Positions 3,001 to 60,200 are shown, counted from the stretch's first letter. The stretch: DNA of 64,000 bases from Protoeuglena noctilucae (GCA_958009085.1 OY253685.1:558001-622000), one strand, 5' to 3'. The notes: generated by a model from the letters alone, not told the origin. Translations and numbers: made by a program.

Positions 3001-6000
3001 ATAGACTGTTGCGTTGTATGGGATCGAGGAGGTTGTGTTATATAACATGATGATATGAAAAAGGTTGATTATAATTTGATATAGCAGTGTTATACTACAT
3101 GATTGTAATATGATATATACTGTAGTAGATACATAACCCTAACTTGTGATGTTCCCATCTCACCCGCTTGCTCCCTCGCCCTCCTCTCCTCCTCCTCCTT
3201 TGCCCTCTTGGCCGCCTCTTTCTCCACTGCGATAAGCACGCAGCAAAGACATTAGACTGCTATAACATTACTGGAATACATATCATGGCAACAGCAGTGA
3301 CGCATCATGGCACATCATTGGTGCTGTCCACTGCTATCCCACGTCTCATCTCACCCCTATCGACCACCACCACCATCACTCTACACCACCACCACAACTA
3401 CAACCAATACCACCACCACTATCACCAACTCTACCCCTGGCCCTCTCCTGCCTCCATCACCCTCAAAACAACCACAACCATTACCATGACACCATTACTA
3501 CCACAAACTCTCACCCCTGGCCTTCTCCTCCGCCTCCATCATCACCCTCAAACCAATCAATACCACCACTACTATCACCACCACTACCAATACCACTATC
3601 ACCAACTCTCACCCCTGGCCTTCTCTTCTGCGTCCATGAGCTCCCTGGCCCTCTCCTGCGCCGTCCTGGCAGTCACCTCCGCCACCAGCGCAGACACCTT
3701 CACACGCATCGCATCCAGCACCGCCTCTGCGATGGCAATTTGTGATATGGCGATAATTACATTTGTTAGTAACACAATAGTTATAGTAATCAAAATCAGT
3801 TAGATAAAATATAATAATCATCGTCCAGTAAGCTGGTTATATTCATCATCAACTAACGGTAAATGTGCATCTCCTTTTCGTGATCATCATACCATCACCA
3901 TCCCCCCTCCGCTCACCTCGGAACTCGAGGGCCATTTCGTGGTACGACGCCTCGACCAGGTCGTCCACCTGCTCGCGGATCTGACGCACGCGGAGGGCGT
4001 ACATGCGCGACAGCAGGGCGCGCGCTGCGGGCGCGAAGAGAACAGGTTAATATAAATAATATAATATTGTTAATATAATATTGTTATATAATATAAAGAC
4101 GCGACTCGCCTGTCCTTCTGTCCTTCTCCGGCATCAGGATGTCGCGTCGGATGGCCTCGGCGGCTTTGCGGAGGTAATTTCCCGGGGCCGCGATGAAGAG
4201 GCAGTCGATAAAATTTGCTTTTGTCGGGCCACCTGTGGGAAAAGGAACATGGGCGAGAATGAGAAAGGAGTGATAGCCATATAGAATGCCACCTGCTGAG
4301 AGGGGCACCTGCGGGTGATGTCTGGCGAGGGAAAATACCACAGTAACAGTCGCCGCCGCCCTCACCTTCGCATCACAATTGCAAGTACTATATCTTACGC
4401 CATGTTCACAACGTTCACCATCAACGGCCCTCACCAGGCTCCGCAGCCGCCTCTTCCACCACCTCCTTCACCACCCCTTGGATCCACGCCAATCTCTCCC
4501 GAATATGGCGAACGGCATTGAGCTGCGAAAGACGGCAAGAATCGCAAAAGTAACAGTCGCGCAGGTCGTACCGAGTAGTATTGTCATGTACAAGCGCGAA
4601 CAGGTAGTGGCAGTAGTAGTAATTATAGCATATAATAAGTACAACTTGTATACTACACATAATTGTGTAGTAATAAAGTAGTATAGTACTATTCTAACAA
4701 CGCAGCCACACACGCGACCCCCACGCCGCCACGCACGGACTCGCCTGCTTGTCGCACACGCCTGCCAGCAGCCCCGCGTTCATTCGAGCCTCTGCCAGCG
4801 GCGATGGATGATCGGGGACGTGGCCGTCGTCACCCTCTCCCATCACCAGGAGGGGCTGCGGGGGACGGAGGTGTATGATTATTCAGTTTTACTATCTATA
4901 TCATGTCACCACATTCATGTACCCGCGTCACGTTTCCAAACATCCAATCGATCAATCACACCCCAAAACGCCCCATCTCCCGCGGCTGCCCCATCCATCT
5001 CACGCCACTTTCCCCACGCAGTCGCAATCGCAATCGCACCTGCAGCGCGGCGCGTGTAATTTCCAGGACCACCTTTCCCGCCTCAGAGACGGCCGCGTAG
5101 TAAGCAACGGTGGTGCTGAGGATCGAACTCATGACCCGCACAGAGGCCACCGCTTCGCTGTGCGATACGCCCACCCACTGCTGCACCCACTGCACCAGCT
5201 GACGGTGATCCCGGGGCTGAGGGACCTGGGGAACGCGGGAAAATCGGGTACTGATTATCAAGCACGTCGTGATAAACGTCAACAACAGTAAATGACAGTT
5301 AAGATGACATCATTCATAACATAACGCCTCGAGTCTTGGGGGGGGGGGGGGGGCGGTTGTACAACAGTTGTTAGAAACAACATAACGCCTTTAGTTTTGG
5401 GGGAGGGACAGTTGTTATAAAATAGATACAAACAGCACCCCGCTCGCCACACCACGTCCCGCCATTCCCCATCGCTCACCTGCAGCGCTTGGTCGGCAGA
5501 AGGCCACCCCCTCCACGCCTCCTCCGCCGCTTTCTCTGCAACCTCCAGCCTCGCAAATGCCGCGTCGTAAGCGGACGCGAGCTCGAAGGCCCACAGGCCC
5601 ACTTGCGCGTCAGTGCCGGAAAGCGGGTGCGCGCCCTCGCTGTGCCGCAGCAGCGTTTGCAGGGAGGCGGCCACGCGGGCGCTGGTCGCGGGGAGGTCCG
5701 AGGTGAGGGGCAGGTGGAGCGGGGCGGGGGGGCGGGCGCGGGAGGGCTGCGGGGGTGGCGGGGCGGTGCGAGCGATAAGTCGCGATTGCCTGGCATGGAG
5801 GGTGCCGGGCACAGCCACAGGGCTTTTGTAATGTGACGCACACCACAGCACAGCACGTTACTTGTACTGTTCTGTTGGTCGCAGATGCACACACGCGGCC
5901 GCAGTGCCCCGCAAACCCTGCCCATCCCAACCACGCCATCAATACCAACCCCACCCCCACCACTAAGCAACTAACCTCCCTCAGCACCGCCCCTCACCTT

Positions 6001-57200: not shown

Positions 57201-60200
57201 ACTCCCAACTCCCACACCCACTACCCCACACCCACTCCCACACCCCCCACACCCACCACCCCACCTCCGCCACCCCACACCCACCCCCACCCCCACACCA
57301 TTCTCACCGCCAGCGCGATGTCCTCGTCGCTCCTCCCCACGAACTTCGCCCCCTGGTCCGCGCTCATCTGCCGCAGCACATCCGGCGTGTGGCTGACCAA
57401 ACACGCTGCCATCGCCGCCATCAACTCCCTCAGCTCATTCGGCTCCCAAAACTCCGTCCCCTCCCACGCAGCCTCGACCGCGCTGTCGGGCTCCTGCCCA
57501 TTCAAATGGTCGGCGGTGACCCATAGAGGGGTGCGCCCGGGACGGTTGTACTGCTTTGCGACGGCGGAGCGGGGGAGCTGGGGGCGGGGGGAGCCGGGGC
57601 GGCGGGAGGCGACGCCGCCGTCGGAGAAATCGGAGTCGCCTTCGGCTCCGGGGTCGTCGCTGCTCGGCTGGGAGAGCTGCGGGTGGGTGGGGATGGGGGG
57701 GAGTGTTGTTAAGGGTATATTCAATACATATGGTACATGGATAATGGCTGGGACTGTATAGATAGTACAATCCATGATTGTACTATCTATACAATGATAG
57801 TACAATCATCATCCCTCACCTGCATGCGTTCTTCGTTGTAGGTGGCCACCCTTGCGGCCCTCCGCTTGCCCCGGGGCATCTGCAGGGCCTGCGGGGGGGG
57901 TGAGAGCGCAGAAAACATCGGTTCAACAACAACAAGCAACAATAACAAGAGTGAATGTCACTCTCGCCGTGATCTCCTGATGGTCATCATTATACATACT
58001 GATTAGTACAAGAATGTTATCACTCATCATCAGCCATATGACCTCACCATGATCTTCTCCTCGTCCATCGCCCGTGCCGCTTCTGGCAGCAGCGACCGCC
58101 AGTAAGCCGCGTCGTCCATGCCCTCCATCGCGCGCGTCTCGGCCTCGAACTGAGAAGGGGAATGGGCATGATGGTGATAGTTAATATGTGTGTCTAATTC
58201 AGCGCTAACCATCATAAATCATGGTAACTACATAAGCCCTGCTCTCTCACCCTGGCCACCGAGAAGGCGTTTCCCTTGCGGCTCCCGAGCGCGCGCTTCT
58301 CCGTCCGCCCCCTCAATATGTCGTCGATATTCTCGTTTTTGAATTCCTCCTCCGCTTTTGCTGCCCCGCCGTGCTCCTCCTCCTTCAGCATGTGCGCGCC
58401 GTATTTGAGCAGGTCCGCCAAGTGACGCGCGTCCATGCGGGCATCCGAAGCATTGCGGCCCATGGAGCCCAGGATGGCCTCGTCCAGGCCGAACTGCGGA
58501 CGTGGTCGGGGAGTAATTGTCGCAGTTATTGCTGTGATTATCAATGTAGTATTAATTATCATTATGGGTGATCATCTGGGGTGGTGGATATCTTCCACCA
58601 ACCCTATAGTAATACATAATTATAGCTCCACTCGCCTTCCTGGACGCTGTCTGGAAGATGGCCTCCTCGTAGGTGTTGCGGGAGAGGAGGCGGTAGACGG
58701 TCACGTCCCGCTCCTGGCCGATGCGGTGGCAGCGGGCCATTGCCTGCAGGTCGTTCTGCGAAATAGAGAGGGAAAGAGAAGATATGAATATAATTACGTT
58801 GTTAAGATATATCTAATGTGAAATTACAGCCACCGTTGCTTCAGTAACAGCCGCGCGTGCTAAAATTTATAACGATTACATACCCAATATTTATTGTCAT
58901 GATATAATAACCATAACAACCACCCCTCGCCTGCGGGTTCCAGTCCGAGTCATAGATGACGACCGTGTCGGCGGCCGTGAGGGTGATGCCTTGGCCGCCC
59001 GCGCGGGTGCTCAGGAGGAACACTGGGGGGGGGGGGGGGGGGGGGGGAGGGGGGCAGCAAGATCGTGATGTATACATGTGCATTGTTATCTAAGCATAGG
59101 CATCTAATCGACGGTCAATAGTCGACTGATTTCCGAACGTATCCGTGGCTGTCCCATGAACCAGCGCATGGGTACATGAACATATGATAAACAATCTTAT
59201 TACAACCACCAACCAACAATCACTCACCGAACGAGTCGGTGGCCGTCCCCATGAACCGGTCGATGGCGGCCTGCCGAGCAGCACCCCTCACATTCCCATC
59301 GATGCGCTCGCAAGGGTATCCACTCAAAACCATGAAATCCTCCAACACGTCCAGCATCATTCGGAACTGGCTGAAAACCAGCACTTTCCGACCCTCCTGC
59401 CTGAGCTTGGGCAGTAGCTTCTGCAACAGGACCATCTTGCCCGACGATTGGACGATCAACTCCAACAGGCGCTTGCGCTCCTCGGGGCTGCGAGGGAGGG
59501 GATTGGGGACAGGGAAATTATATAATTATTAGTTGCATATCCTTGCATTAATTATTAGCCATAACTATCCAGCAGGCAGTGGCGCTCCTCGGGGCTGCAT
59601 GGGAGGGGGGATATGTGAGATGGAGATGGGCAAATGAAATAGTTTTTTATTATTATTTTAAATCGTTATCTTATTGTGTGTCTTAGCCATAATATTAACA
59701 ATTATGGCCCGTGAGTTGTGTGAAGCGCCTCCTCATTATCCCAACCCACTCTCACCGCCCCAACAGCCCTCACCCTCCCCCACCCCAACCACCCCACTCT
59801 CACCCACACCACTACCAACACCCTCTCACCTCCGCACCCCCGTCCTCCTCAGCCCCCTCCTCCCCAGCATCTCATCCTCCAGTCCCTTCACCAAGAACGG
59901 GTGATTGCACACTTCCCGCAACAGCATGCTGACGTTGTTGAGAGATGGCAGGTTCTGCGCCCCGGCTCCTTTCATGAGATCGCCGATGCGCCTTTCGAGC
60001 GTGGCTTTGTACACCGCACGCTGCTCCCCCGTCAGCTCCACCCACACGATGACCTGGGGGGGTAGGGATGAGGGTGGATTGGTGATAATCAATCGTAGAT
60101 ATCATAAAAGGAAACAGTGGTAAGTAATAGAAATCAATAATAAAAATTCACTAATAATATCACTAAAATAATAGTGAAAAACAAAAATATCAGTAGTTAT

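What the first reader, a model, noticed from the sequence alone, without database searches (positions are those of the whole stretch)
3427..59598. Systematic 'exon echoes': introns carry degenerate copies of the adjacent exon edge or splice site at a characteristic ~80-120 bp offset
Seen: at least 17 introns in five unrelated genes contain a 15-45 nt direct copy of the neighbouring exon end, often including the splice site. Real/echo positions (offset): 3604/3506 (98) and 3427; 8540/8677 (137); 8900/8831 (69); 20809/20727 (82); 38526/38620 (94); 51075/51173 (98); 51419/51359/51286; 51671/51784 (113); 52355/52261 (94); 52534/52643 (109); 52850/52765 (85); 55312/55397 (85); 56079/55965 (114); 56892/57010 (118); 57303/57147/57081; 59227/59133 (94); 59475/59582 (107). 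Divergence ranges from identical to heavily decayed, so the events differ in age. I saw echoes only in gene-body introns, not in the short CpG-rich introns near gene starts. Inference: an ongoing process makes ~100-bp local tandem duplications, tolerated when the extra copy is absorbed into an intron. This would lengthen introns and seed cryptic splice sites. The narrow offset range hints at a fixed-length mechanism (replication, repair or chromatin linked). I know of no description of this at such density.
Basis: partly seen in the sequence, partly recalled or inferred. Interest (0 to 1): 0.8.

Follow-up and report, generated by a model that had tools for sequence, protein, structure and literature searches.

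The report
Splice-junction copies scattered inside algal introns
In this marine green-alga-like genome piece, about three in ten checked splice junctions have a short copy of themselves lying roughly 100 bases deeper in the neighbouring intron, most likely scars of sloppy DNA repair that lengthen introns and plant spare splice sites.

Summary
All 20 reader pairs align; two are near noise. An unbiased scan finds 18 complex direct repeats at offsets 50-149, none at 16-49 or 500-1500, and no inverted repeats. Of 34 protein- or RNA-verified junctions, 10 have a copy in the adjacent intron (score 14-38), against a maximum of 14 in 962 non-cognate comparisons. Independent metagenome contigs carry the same DNA, and RNA contigs and a spliced protein use the outer, real sites.

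These are not ~100-bp tandem duplications. Only a 13-47-nt patch is copied: 92.5% identity inside, 26% in the flanks, which equals background. The spacer is unique and in several cases holds essential exon codons.

Best reading (0.45): template-switch or templated-insertion repair in short introns, filtered by splicing. Secondary array growth follows in four introns.

The nearest described cases I found are the staggered-break repeats of Daphnia neointrons, which are 4-12 bp. No description of this pattern turned up in seven literature searches. No pre-insertion allele or intron-bearing relative was available, so the mechanism stays inferred.

The parts
3385..3637 (-). 5' junction of a minus-strand gene. 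The real copy is at 3595-3637 and spans the GTGAG donor. Echoes lie at 3497-3539 (38/43, offset 98) and at about 3385-3445.
   Evidence: Exon inferred from the open frame only. Here the flank similarity is significant, so this is a secondary array.
8536..8697 (-). 3' junction. The real copy is at 8536-8560 (16 nt intron + 9 nt exon). The echo is at 8673-8697 (24/25, offset 137). The spacer is a C-rich 24-nt microsatellite.
   Evidence: Exon inferred from the open frame.
8831..8913 (-). Donor plus first intron bases. The real copy is at 8900-8913 and the echo at 8831-8844 (13/14, offset 69). This pair is weak and near the noise level.
11929..12062 (-). Nested array of donor-bearing units downstream of an exon end at about 12069 (offsets 71 and 84).
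   Evidence: flank similarity p<0.005
20722..20838 (-). Exon end. The real copy is at 20804-20838 and the echo at 20722-20756 (34/35, offset 82). Flanks are unrelated.
38526..38648 (-). The source is exon-internal (exon +22..+50 from the acceptor, 38526-38554). The echo is at 38620-38648 (27/29, offset 94), upstream in the intron.
42783..42896 (+). Donor junction. The real copy is at 42783-42808 (11 nt exon + 15 nt intron). The echo is at 42871-42896 (23/26, offset 88), where GT has become GC.
51075..51205 (+). PEPC intron 51123-51421, 5' side. The source is 51075-51107, ending 15 nt before the exon end. The echo is at 51173-51205 (30/33, offset 98).
51222..51439 (+). Same PEPC intron, 3' side. 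The real acceptor plus exon start is at 51415-51439. Echoes lie at 51359-51371 (13/13), 51282-51306 (23/25) and 51222-51242. A roughly 100-nt unit has also been copied once, with a spacer of about 38 nt.
51671..51827 (+). PEPC intron 51707-51987, 5' side. The source is 51671-51714 (36 nt exon + donor). The echo is at 51784-51827 (42/44, offset 113).
52256..52380 (+). PEPC intron 52208-52354, 3' side. The real copy is at 52350-52380 and the echo at 52256-52286 (30/31, offset 94). The acceptor G is changed in the echo.
52534..52670 (+). PEPC intron about 52575-52854, 5' side. The source is 52534-52561, ending 13 nt before the exon end. The echo is at 52643-52670 (28/28, offset 109).
52765..52891 (+). 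Same intron, 3' side. The real copy is at 52850-52891 and the echo at 52765-52806 (38/42, offset 85).
55305..55436 (-). Acceptor junction. The real copy is at 55305-55351 (29 nt intron + 18 nt exon) and the echo at 55390-55436 (40/47, offset 85).
   Evidence: Exon inferred from the open frame.
55965..56133 (-). SNF2-like gene donor junction (exon end 56085). The real copy is at 56079-56133 and the echo at 55965-56010 (31/32 plus 16/17). The echo lacks 9 nt, which is 3 codons.
56905..57035 (-). The source is exon-internal, just after the acceptor at about 56933. The echo has a 14/14 core at 57022-57035. By eye it extends to about 38 nt at about 80% identity (offset 117).
57075..57325 (-). SNF2-like donor junction (exon end 57307). 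The real copy is at 57298-57325. Echoes lie at 57142-57169 (26/28, offset 156) and 57075-57106 (28/32 to the first echo).
59133..59249 (-). SNF2-like donor junction (exon end 59228). The echo is at 59133-59155 (19/23 ungapped, offset 94). This is an older copy.
   Evidence: cognate score 14
59461..59608 (-). SNF2-like acceptor junction (exon start 59487). The real copy is at 59461-59501 (14 nt intron + 27 nt exon) and the echo at 59568-59608 (35/41, offset 107).

Best explanation
The echoes are scars of error-prone DNA synthesis at breaks or stalls inside short introns.

Proposed steps (inferred):
- The repair or replicative polymerase switches template to a site some 60-135 nt away on the same duplex or the sister chromatid.
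- It copies 13-47 nt (once about 100 nt).
- It then returns, leaving a direct 'patch' copy at the break while the sequence in between stays as it was.

Because introns here were only about 100-200 nt long, a template about 100 nt from a mid-intron break is usually the exon edge or the splice junction. Selection then removes copies that land in exons, copies that land in the branch-point to acceptor zone, and (inferred) inverted copies that would pair with a splice site. This filtering leaves the narrow offsets and the direct-only pattern.

Once two copies exist, slippage between them amplifies whole units. That gives the 3-4-copy arrays seen in four introns. The net effect is longer introns and spare, mostly unused, splice sites.

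Shown: patch anatomy, enrichment, orientation, presence in wild DNA, and use of the outer sites in RNA. Inferred: the template-switch step and the selective filter.
For: - Sharp patches: 382/413 identical inside versus 77/300 and 78/300 in the flanks, against a 27% background. The tandem-register spacer test is at chance on both sides (p >= 0.1) in 15 of the 23 pairs tested.
- The spacer cannot be foreign in several cases. It holds exon codons confirmed by the spliced protein (51075 and 52534 pairs). It holds the acceptor plus first exon codons at 38526 and 56905. The 52256 echo sits in G/T-rich 5'-type intron sequence with no pyrimidine tract before it.
- In intron 51123-51421 the offsets sum to 295 of 299 nt, so an 'inserted spacer' reading would leave no ancestral intron.
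- In the same intron an upstream-exon patch and a downstream-junction patch lie 16 nt apart, as expected for one break filled from both flanks.
- After subtracting patch lengths, echo-bearing introns are about as long as echo-free ones (my arithmetic).
- Events of different ages cluster: 6 of 8 PEPC junctions between 51.1 and 52.9 kb versus 0 of 14 elsewhere. This suggests a persistent local break propensity.
- Spacers share no family and have no other copies in the window.
- Arrays with whole-unit similarity occur only where there are 3 or more copies.
Against: - No pre-insertion allele was seen. Runs X5 and X7 carry the same echoes, so the direction and the single-step nature of the events are not shown.
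- By my recollection, templated insertions by polymerase theta are usually shorter, use templates closer to the break, and come in both orientations. Here 0 inverted copies were found. The absence must be ascribed to selection, which is untested.
- No microhomology signature could be read from the sequence.
- At 20.8 kb the echo is followed after 17 nt by an in-frame GTAAGC donor. That fits the rival reading in which the echo is the old exon end.
- Only 64 kb was available, and gene models outside PEPC and part of the SNF2-like gene rest on open frames.
Confidence: 0.45

Rival explanations
1. Staggered double-strand breaks around the splice junction, as proposed for Daphnia neointrons. Two nicks 13-47 nt apart are filled in, duplicating the junction, and filler DNA (the spacer) is ligated between the copies. 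The event survives only because the duplicated splice site lets the insert be spliced out with the old intron. On this reading the echo marks the old boundary and the spacer is new intron DNA.
For: - The anatomy is repeat-spacer-repeat with blunt edges.
- Most patches span the junction, which this model explains directly by survivorship.
- Spacers on the 3' side carry branch-point-like motifs and pyrimidine tracts.
- At 20.8 kb an in-frame donor follows the echo.
- Spacers are AT-rich: mean GC 0.41 against 0.62 for the window.
- Daphnia neointrons show exon-terminal and internal direct repeats ascribed to staggered breaks (PMC4202315, passages read).
Against: - In at least 4 pairs the spacer contains native exon codons or the native splice site (51075, 52534, 38526, 56905).
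- The 52256 echo lacks a pyrimidine tract upstream.
- Intron 51123-51421 would shrink to about 4 nt.
- Spacer strand composition matches its position in the intron, G/T-rich near donors and C/A-rich near acceptors. Random filler would not show this.
- The overhangs required are several times longer than the 4-12 bp reported in Daphnia.
Confidence: 0.2
2. One reading: true tandem duplications of about 60-135 bp spanning a splice junction. The redundant splice site and its intron part were later lost or overwritten by deletion, selected against as cryptic sites, or by rapid turnover of low-complexity intron sequence.
For: - Whole-unit similarity exists in the multi-copy introns at 3.5 kb, 11.9 kb, 51.2-51.4 kb and 57.1 kb, and in the non-coding pair 5318/5379.
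- Small tandem duplications from break repair are well documented (PMC8355091 and PMC5730883, search listing only).
- Some echoes have lost or weakened their splice site: 42871 GT to GC, 52256 AG to AT, and 59133.
Against: - The youngest patches (28/28, 34/35, 31/32, 30/31) have flanks at background identity. A second event would be needed each time, before a single substitution had accumulated in the patch.
- The spacers are not microsatellites in those cases.
Confidence: 0.15
3. A junction-anchored, RNA-linked process. A break in the intron is repaired using the gene's own unspliced transcript, or a spliceosome-protected fragment of it, as template. Splice-junction sequence is therefore copied specifically and only in sense orientation.
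For: - All sources span or lie within about 21 nt of a junction.
- All copies are in sense orientation and in the same intron.
- Junction-spanning patches contain intron bases, so any RNA template would have to be unspliced.
- Non-junction repeats show a different, broader offset spread.
Against: - There is no direct evidence for this.
- Junction proximity and orientation can both be produced by geometry plus selection.
- Intron-internal patch repeats also exist (48923/48981).
Confidence: 0.1
4. The echoes are selected elements, such as decoy or back-up splice sites or splicing enhancers, or they are copies of a mobile introner-like element.
For: - Many echoes keep an intact GTGAG or CAG.
- The density is high, at 10 of 34 junctions.
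Against: - Differences between echo and exon are mostly non-synonymous in the one pair read codon by codon (52765/52850: 3 of 4, my reading). Identity ranges from 100% down to about 80%, as for neutral decay.
- There is no shared spacer family, no terminal inverted repeats and no other copies in the window.
Confidence: 0.05

Closest known systems
Direct repeats in newly gained Daphnia pulex introns, ascribed to staggered double-strand-break repair (Li et al. 2014, PMC4202315; abstract and passages read)
   Same: - Direct repeats of the adjacent exon's terminal bases are found inside the intron.
- Internal direct repeats occur in a majority of young introns (55/90).
- They are interpreted as break-repair scars that passively lengthen introns.
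- Repeated events occur at the same intron.
   Different: - Daphnia repeats are 4-12 bp and lie at the opposite end of a new intron. Here patches are 13-47 nt (one about 100 nt) and sit mid-intron, 57-156 nt from the junction they copy.
- They occur on both the donor and the acceptor side.
- In several cases the intervening DNA is demonstrably native.
Templated (filler) insertions at end-joining junctions, polymerase-theta type (PMC7165422 and PMC2895639, search listing only; typical sizes and distances are from my recollection)
   Same: A short copy of nearby flanking sequence is deposited at a break. It has sharp edges, and compound insertions from both flanks are possible.
   Different: - By my recollection such insertions are typically under 30 nt, use templates within a few tens of bases, and come in both direct and inverted orientations.
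- Here templates lie about 60-135 nt away and only direct copies are seen.
- Dependence on the enzyme is untested.
Small tandem duplications from paired nicks or 3'-overhang fill-in (PMC8355091 and PMC5730883, search listing only; the rice 'patch-mediated' work is recalled, not seen)
   Same: Local direct duplications of tens to about 100 bp arise from break repair.
   Different: A tandem duplication gives two adjacent full units. That was tested here and is not met for the single pairs.
Introners / transposon-derived introns (PMC9860276 and PMC12130899, search listing only)
   Same: They occur in aquatic algae, add intron sequence, and use duplicated target sites to supply splice sites.
   Different: Introners are families of similar elements with short target-site duplications. 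Here the spacers are unique and the repeats are long.
Direct repeats at intron/exon borders (Rogers and Bendich 2025, PMC11782384; abstract read)
   Same: Direct repeats of 4-30 bp near splice sites are read as insertion scars.
   Different: Those repeats pair the two borders of one intron. Here a junction is paired with an internal site of the same intron.

Membership tests
Simple tandem duplication | Two adjacent, full-length copies of one unit, so that similarity runs through the whole offset length. | tested here: not met
   In 12 single pairs the patch is 92.5% identical and the flanks 26%, equal to background. The gapped spacer tests are at chance for most pairs. The feature is met only in the multi-copy arrays.
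Staggered-break insertion (Daphnia-type) | A direct repeat flanks an inserted, non-native segment. | tested here: not met
   The repeat-spacer-repeat form is present. But in at least 4 pairs the spacer holds native exon codons or the native splice site, and one intron would vanish. The test is inconclusive for the junction-spanning pairs.
Staggered-break insertion (Daphnia-type) | Short repeat length (4-12 bp reported). | tested here: not met
   Patches are 13-47 nt, and one is about 100 nt. The reported range comes from PMC4202315.
Templated insertion by theta-type end joining | The insert is a copy of sequence close to the junction. | tested here: met
   All copies derive from within 57-156 nt, or 222 nt for a third copy.
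Templated insertion by theta-type end joining | Both direct and inverted templated copies occur, with microhomology at the switch points. | tested here: not met
   0 inverted repeats at score >=15. Microhomology cannot be read without the pre-insertion allele.
Templated insertion by theta-type end joining | Dependence on the polymerase. | not testable with these tools
   No genome is held and there is no genetics.
Introner / mobile element | Many similar copies of the inserted sequence, with terminal repeats or fixed short target duplications. | tested here: not met
   Spacers tested against the window and against each other give only low-complexity hits. No inverted repeats were found. The test is limited to 64 kb.
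Intron gain by duplication of an AGGT-containing exon segment | The intron 5' part copies the downstream exon and the 3' part copies the upstream exon. | tested here: not met
   The order in introns 51123-51421 and 52575-52854 is upstream-exon copy first, then downstream-exon copy.

The most novel reading that the evidence does not exclude
A dedicated, junction-anchored copying process. DNA breaks at a characteristic distance from splice sites are repaired using the splice-junction region itself as template, possibly via the unspliced transcript or a spliceosome- or chromatin-positioned intermediate. Junctions are thereby specifically re-copied about 100 nt into introns. This would be an unrecognised route of intron growth, and perhaps of intron birth (intron 51123-51421 is almost wholly made of such material).
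Probability: 0.15. Interest if true: 0.85.

Novelty: new variant of a known kind. Interest (0 to 1): 0.6.

Why it matters
How introns grow, and how new splice sites arise, is still argued mostly from old, decayed examples. Here one small genome region shows many events of graded age, with identity from 100% down to about 80% and sharp edges. They affect about 30% of verified junctions, are fixed in wild populations, and leave the mRNA unchanged.

If the pattern holds genome-wide, this alga would be a natural system, like Daphnia, for studying:
- intron expansion by break repair in action;
- how often duplicated splice sites are tolerated or silenced;
- whether templates are chosen by distance, by chromatin or by the transcript.

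The pattern also warns gene predictors: near-perfect decoy splice sites with exon-like context lie inside introns.

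Tried and rejected
- Whole genome: none is held, so no genome-wide histogram was possible.
- Pfam scan of 150 open frames from 1-21 kb: no family at E <= 1e-4. It did not help gene models and the other two batches were not run.
- A codon-usage coding track trained on PEPC exons was too weak to annotate genes.
- A protein search with an SNF2-like exon found nothing at E <= 1e-25. In hindsight that threshold was strict.
- A brute-force exon-chain search gave 1211 solutions and was dropped. An exact-length single-exon search found none. The two missing exons were then read by eye.
- Relatives: 80 PEPC loci from metagenome contigs were fetched. The best few (67% and 57% identity) match the protein as one uninterrupted stretch, so they look intronless, and the rest are more distant. 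None gave an orthologous intron.
- The joint table of read laying was swamped by low-complexity joints, so RNA junction rows were not visible. Exon usage was taken from contig pieces and length bookkeeping instead.
- First version of the cognate/non-cognate test: neighbouring windows contained the query itself. It was redone with pairs more than 700 nt apart.
- Earlier scan notes: nothing on this genome or on look-alike stretches. One unrelated fungal note turned up.
- Literature: seven searches found no description of mid-intron copies of the adjacent splice junction at this density. Subscription journals, and any genome paper of this organism, may hold one.
- Considered and rejected: chance or low complexity, assembly artefact, lariat or reverse-splicing products (these predict other junctions, by reasoning only), and capture of free DNA fragments (this predicts both orientations).

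Full report
**What the window is**

The window is GC-rich (0.62) nuclear DNA with many short spliceosomal introns. It contains a run of N at 50338-50537.

A phosphoenolpyruvate carboxylase (PEPC) gene lies on the + strand at about 48.8-53.5 kb. One exon finds a 982-aa protein that is 100% identical over that exon (P0002). The best named relatives are green algae at 72-76% identity. Walking P0002 along the DNA by exact peptides gives 11 fully visible introns.

A second gene lies on the - strand at 55-60 kb. It encodes a helicase C-terminal region of SNF2 type, a name I give from reading the translation, not from a family search. RNA contigs and open frames fix six donors and six acceptors in it. 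Four of the 17 verified donors are GC-type (GCGAG).

Yes.

Two are near noise (8900/8831 and 59227/59133).
- A scan of all diagonals, keeping only complex matches and leaving out a 33-nt coding array, gives at score >=16: 0 pairs at offsets 16-49, 18 at 50-149, 2 at 150-299, 1 at 300-499 and 0 at 500-1500. It gives no inverted repeats at score >=15, although a planted inverted repeat was found. The median offset is 96.
- For the 34 verified junctions I compared 50 nt of exon plus 15 nt of intron with the adjacent intron. Ten score 14-38 and the other 24 score <=9.
- Of 962 comparisons with introns more than 700 nt away, 5 reach 14 and none exceeds it. Fisher p = 1.4e-10 at threshold 13. The reverse-complement control peaks at 10.

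Some local repeats are something else. One is an in-frame protein repeat at 1166/1295. Two are repeats within non-coding sequence, at 48923/48981 and 5318/5379.

**Is it real DNA, and which sites are used?**

Contigs from run X1 cover 50545-54492, 54753-59016 and 59063-61999 without a difference. Contigs of two independent marine metagenome runs (X5, X7) cover most echo regions with 0-1 differences and no gaps. The echoes are therefore not a consensus artefact, and in those samples they are not polymorphic.

An RNA contig of run X10 carries PEPC exons. The undisplayed stretches of that contig have the lengths of the canonical exons: 123 nt, and 712 against an expected 713 nt. In the SNF2-like gene a 212-nt stretch equals two exons of 93 and 119 nt. 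P0002 also reads through the real junctions. The dominant transcripts therefore ignore the echoes. Minor use could not be measured.

**Anatomy**

On the gene strand, donor-side copies lie downstream in the intron and acceptor-side copies lie upstream. All are in direct orientation.

Sources either span the junction or lie close to it. Examples that span it are 36 nt of exon plus the donor at 51671, and 5 nt of intron plus 37 nt of exon at 52850. Others end 13-15 nt before the exon end (52534, 51075), or start about 8-21 nt after the exon start (56.9 kb, 38.6 kb).

The decisive point is that only the patch is duplicated. In 12 single pairs, identity is 382/413 inside the patch, against 77/300 and 78/300 in the 25 nt on either side and a 27% background. 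Gapped alignment of the spacer with the sequence a tandem unit would require is at chance on both sides (p >= 0.1) in 15 of the 23 pairs tested. The youngest patches (28/28, 34/35, 31/32, 30/31) show this as clearly as the older ones. So these are repeat-spacer-repeat structures, not tandem duplications of about 100 bp.

Whole-unit similarity appears only where three or four copies exist (3.5 kb, 11.9 kb, 51.2-51.4 kb, 57.1 kb). I read these as later amplification between the first two copies.

**Which part is new, the patch or the spacer?**

If the spacer had been inserted between the two halves of a filled-in staggered break, the spacer should be dispensable. It is not.

- At 51075 and 52534 it holds the last exon codons and the donor. 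These codons are present in P0002.
- At 38.6 kb and 56.9 kb it holds the acceptor and the first exon codons.
- The 52256 echo is preceded by G/T-rich 5'-type intron sequence with no pyrimidine tract, unlike the verified acceptors printed.
- In intron 51123-51421 the offsets add up to 295 of 299 nt.
- Spacer composition follows the general polarity of the introns I read, G/T-rich after donors and C/A-rich before acceptors. I judged this by reading, not by a count.
- Subtracting only the patches brings echo-bearing introns (mean 243 nt) back to about the length of echo-free ones (164 nt). This is my arithmetic.

All this favours insertion of a copied patch into an existing intron. One observation points the other way. 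At 20.8 kb the echo is followed after 17 nt by an in-frame GTAAGC donor, as if it were the old exon end.

**Why about 100 nt?**

Junction echoes peak at offsets of 75-125. Other local direct repeats in the window spread from 16 to 300.

- Lower bound (inferred). I infer that selection sets it. Acceptor-side spacers are never shorter than 38 nt, which is enough for a branch point and a pyrimidine tract. A copy carrying an AG any closer would hijack splicing.
- Upper bound (inferred). I infer that the mechanism sets it. Sources never start deeper than about 55 nt in an exon, although exons are about 120-290 nt long.

The 'characteristic' offset is thus probably a window between these two bounds rather than a ruler. 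I could not test this without more sequence.

**Mechanism**

The best-supported reading is a double template switch, that is, a templated insertion during repair or replication inside short introns. The result is then filtered by splicing, and sometimes array growth follows.

Supporting details:
- An upstream-exon patch and a downstream-junction patch lie 16 nt apart in one intron. This is what filling one break from both flanks would give.
- Events of different ages cluster in one 1.8-kb stretch of PEPC: 6 of 8 junctions, against 0 of 14 elsewhere. The stretch was chosen after seeing the data.

Weak points:
- No inverted copies were found.
- The template distance and patch length are unusually large for theta-type end joining, as far as I recall those figures.
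- There is no pre-insertion allele.

The rivals are listed with their odds in the Rival explanations section. They are a staggered break with filler, tandem duplication followed by loss, an RNA-linked junction-specific process, and function or a mobile element. Spacers have no family and no second copy in the window, which argues against a mobile element within the limits of 64 kb.

**Comparison with what is known**

The nearest described case I found is Daphnia pulex. There, new introns carry 4-12-bp copies of the adjacent exon end at their far end. In addition, 55 of 90 have internal direct repeats ascribed to staggered breaks that lengthen young introns (PMC4202315, abstract and passages read).

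Rogers and Bendich report 4-30-bp direct repeats pairing the two borders of introns (PMC11782384, abstract read). Small tandem duplications and theta-type templated insertions are known repair scars (listings only).

The present pattern differs in four ways:
- patch length (13-47 nt);
- position (mid-intron, paired with the nearest junction, on both donor and acceptor sides);
- the native spacer;
- density (10 of 34 junctions).

Seven searches found no description of it. Papers outside the held library, including any genome paper for this organism, could not be checked.

**Verdict**

- The feature is real and strongly non-random.
- The class, break-repair scars that lengthen introns, is known.
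- This form and density appear to be a new variant.
- The mechanism remains inferred.

Noticed in passing
window 50033, 50118, 50128, 50193; N run 50338-50537: Contigs of X1 and X5 (and X7 or X10 at some of the four positions) each lack one base relative to the window at these four positions. The PEPC reading frame breaks at the same places. The window therefore carries four 1-nt insertion errors in a PEPC exon, next to a 200-N gap that hides about 210 codons of the gene.
   Followed up: partly
window 53009, 53304, 58930, 58636 (donors): GC-AG introns with a GCGAG donor are common: 4 of 17 verified donors. None of the four has an echo.
   Followed up: partly
window 16135-16794: There is a long in-frame tandem array of 33-nt units with at least 14 copies. 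Its translation is rich in proline, serine, threonine and glycine. It is a coding repeat unrelated to the echoes.
   Followed up: no
PEPC introns 51123-52854 and the other introns read; 12-nt arrays at 54457-54748, 8556-8671 and 42443-42610: In the introns I read, composition is strongly polar: G/T-rich and C-poor after the donor, C/A-rich and G-poor before the acceptor. Many introns hold degenerate 12-nt-period arrays. The G-rich runs could form quadruplexes and might be the break-prone sites. I did not test this.
   Followed up: no
window 55965-56010 vs 56079-56133: The echo lacks exactly 9 nt (three codons, A-Q-P in the real exon). Either the exon gained three codons after the copy was made, or the echo lost a multiple of three by chance.
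   Followed up: partly
window 20705-20721 (minus strand, just downstream of the echo): Seventeen bases after the echo there is a GTAAGC donor in the same phase as the present donor. If that was the old exon end, the protein lost five residues when the new donor took over.
   Followed up: partly
window 20741, 20823, 21488, 21856: A 14-18-nt motif recurs four times in the same minus-strand gene at spacings of 372-1115 nt. This is probably a repeated protein motif at several exon ends.
   Followed up: no
window 1166-1340 (minus strand): This is an in-frame repeat of an acidic, alanine-rich helix motif, 129 nt apart. It resembles tandem ubiquitin-interacting-type motifs, a likeness I recall rather than tested.
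   Followed up: no
window 51122-52856: Echo-bearing junctions are clustered: 6 of 8 in this 1.8-kb stretch of PEPC, against 0 of 14 in the rest of the gene. The stretch was chosen after seeing the data.
   Followed up: partly
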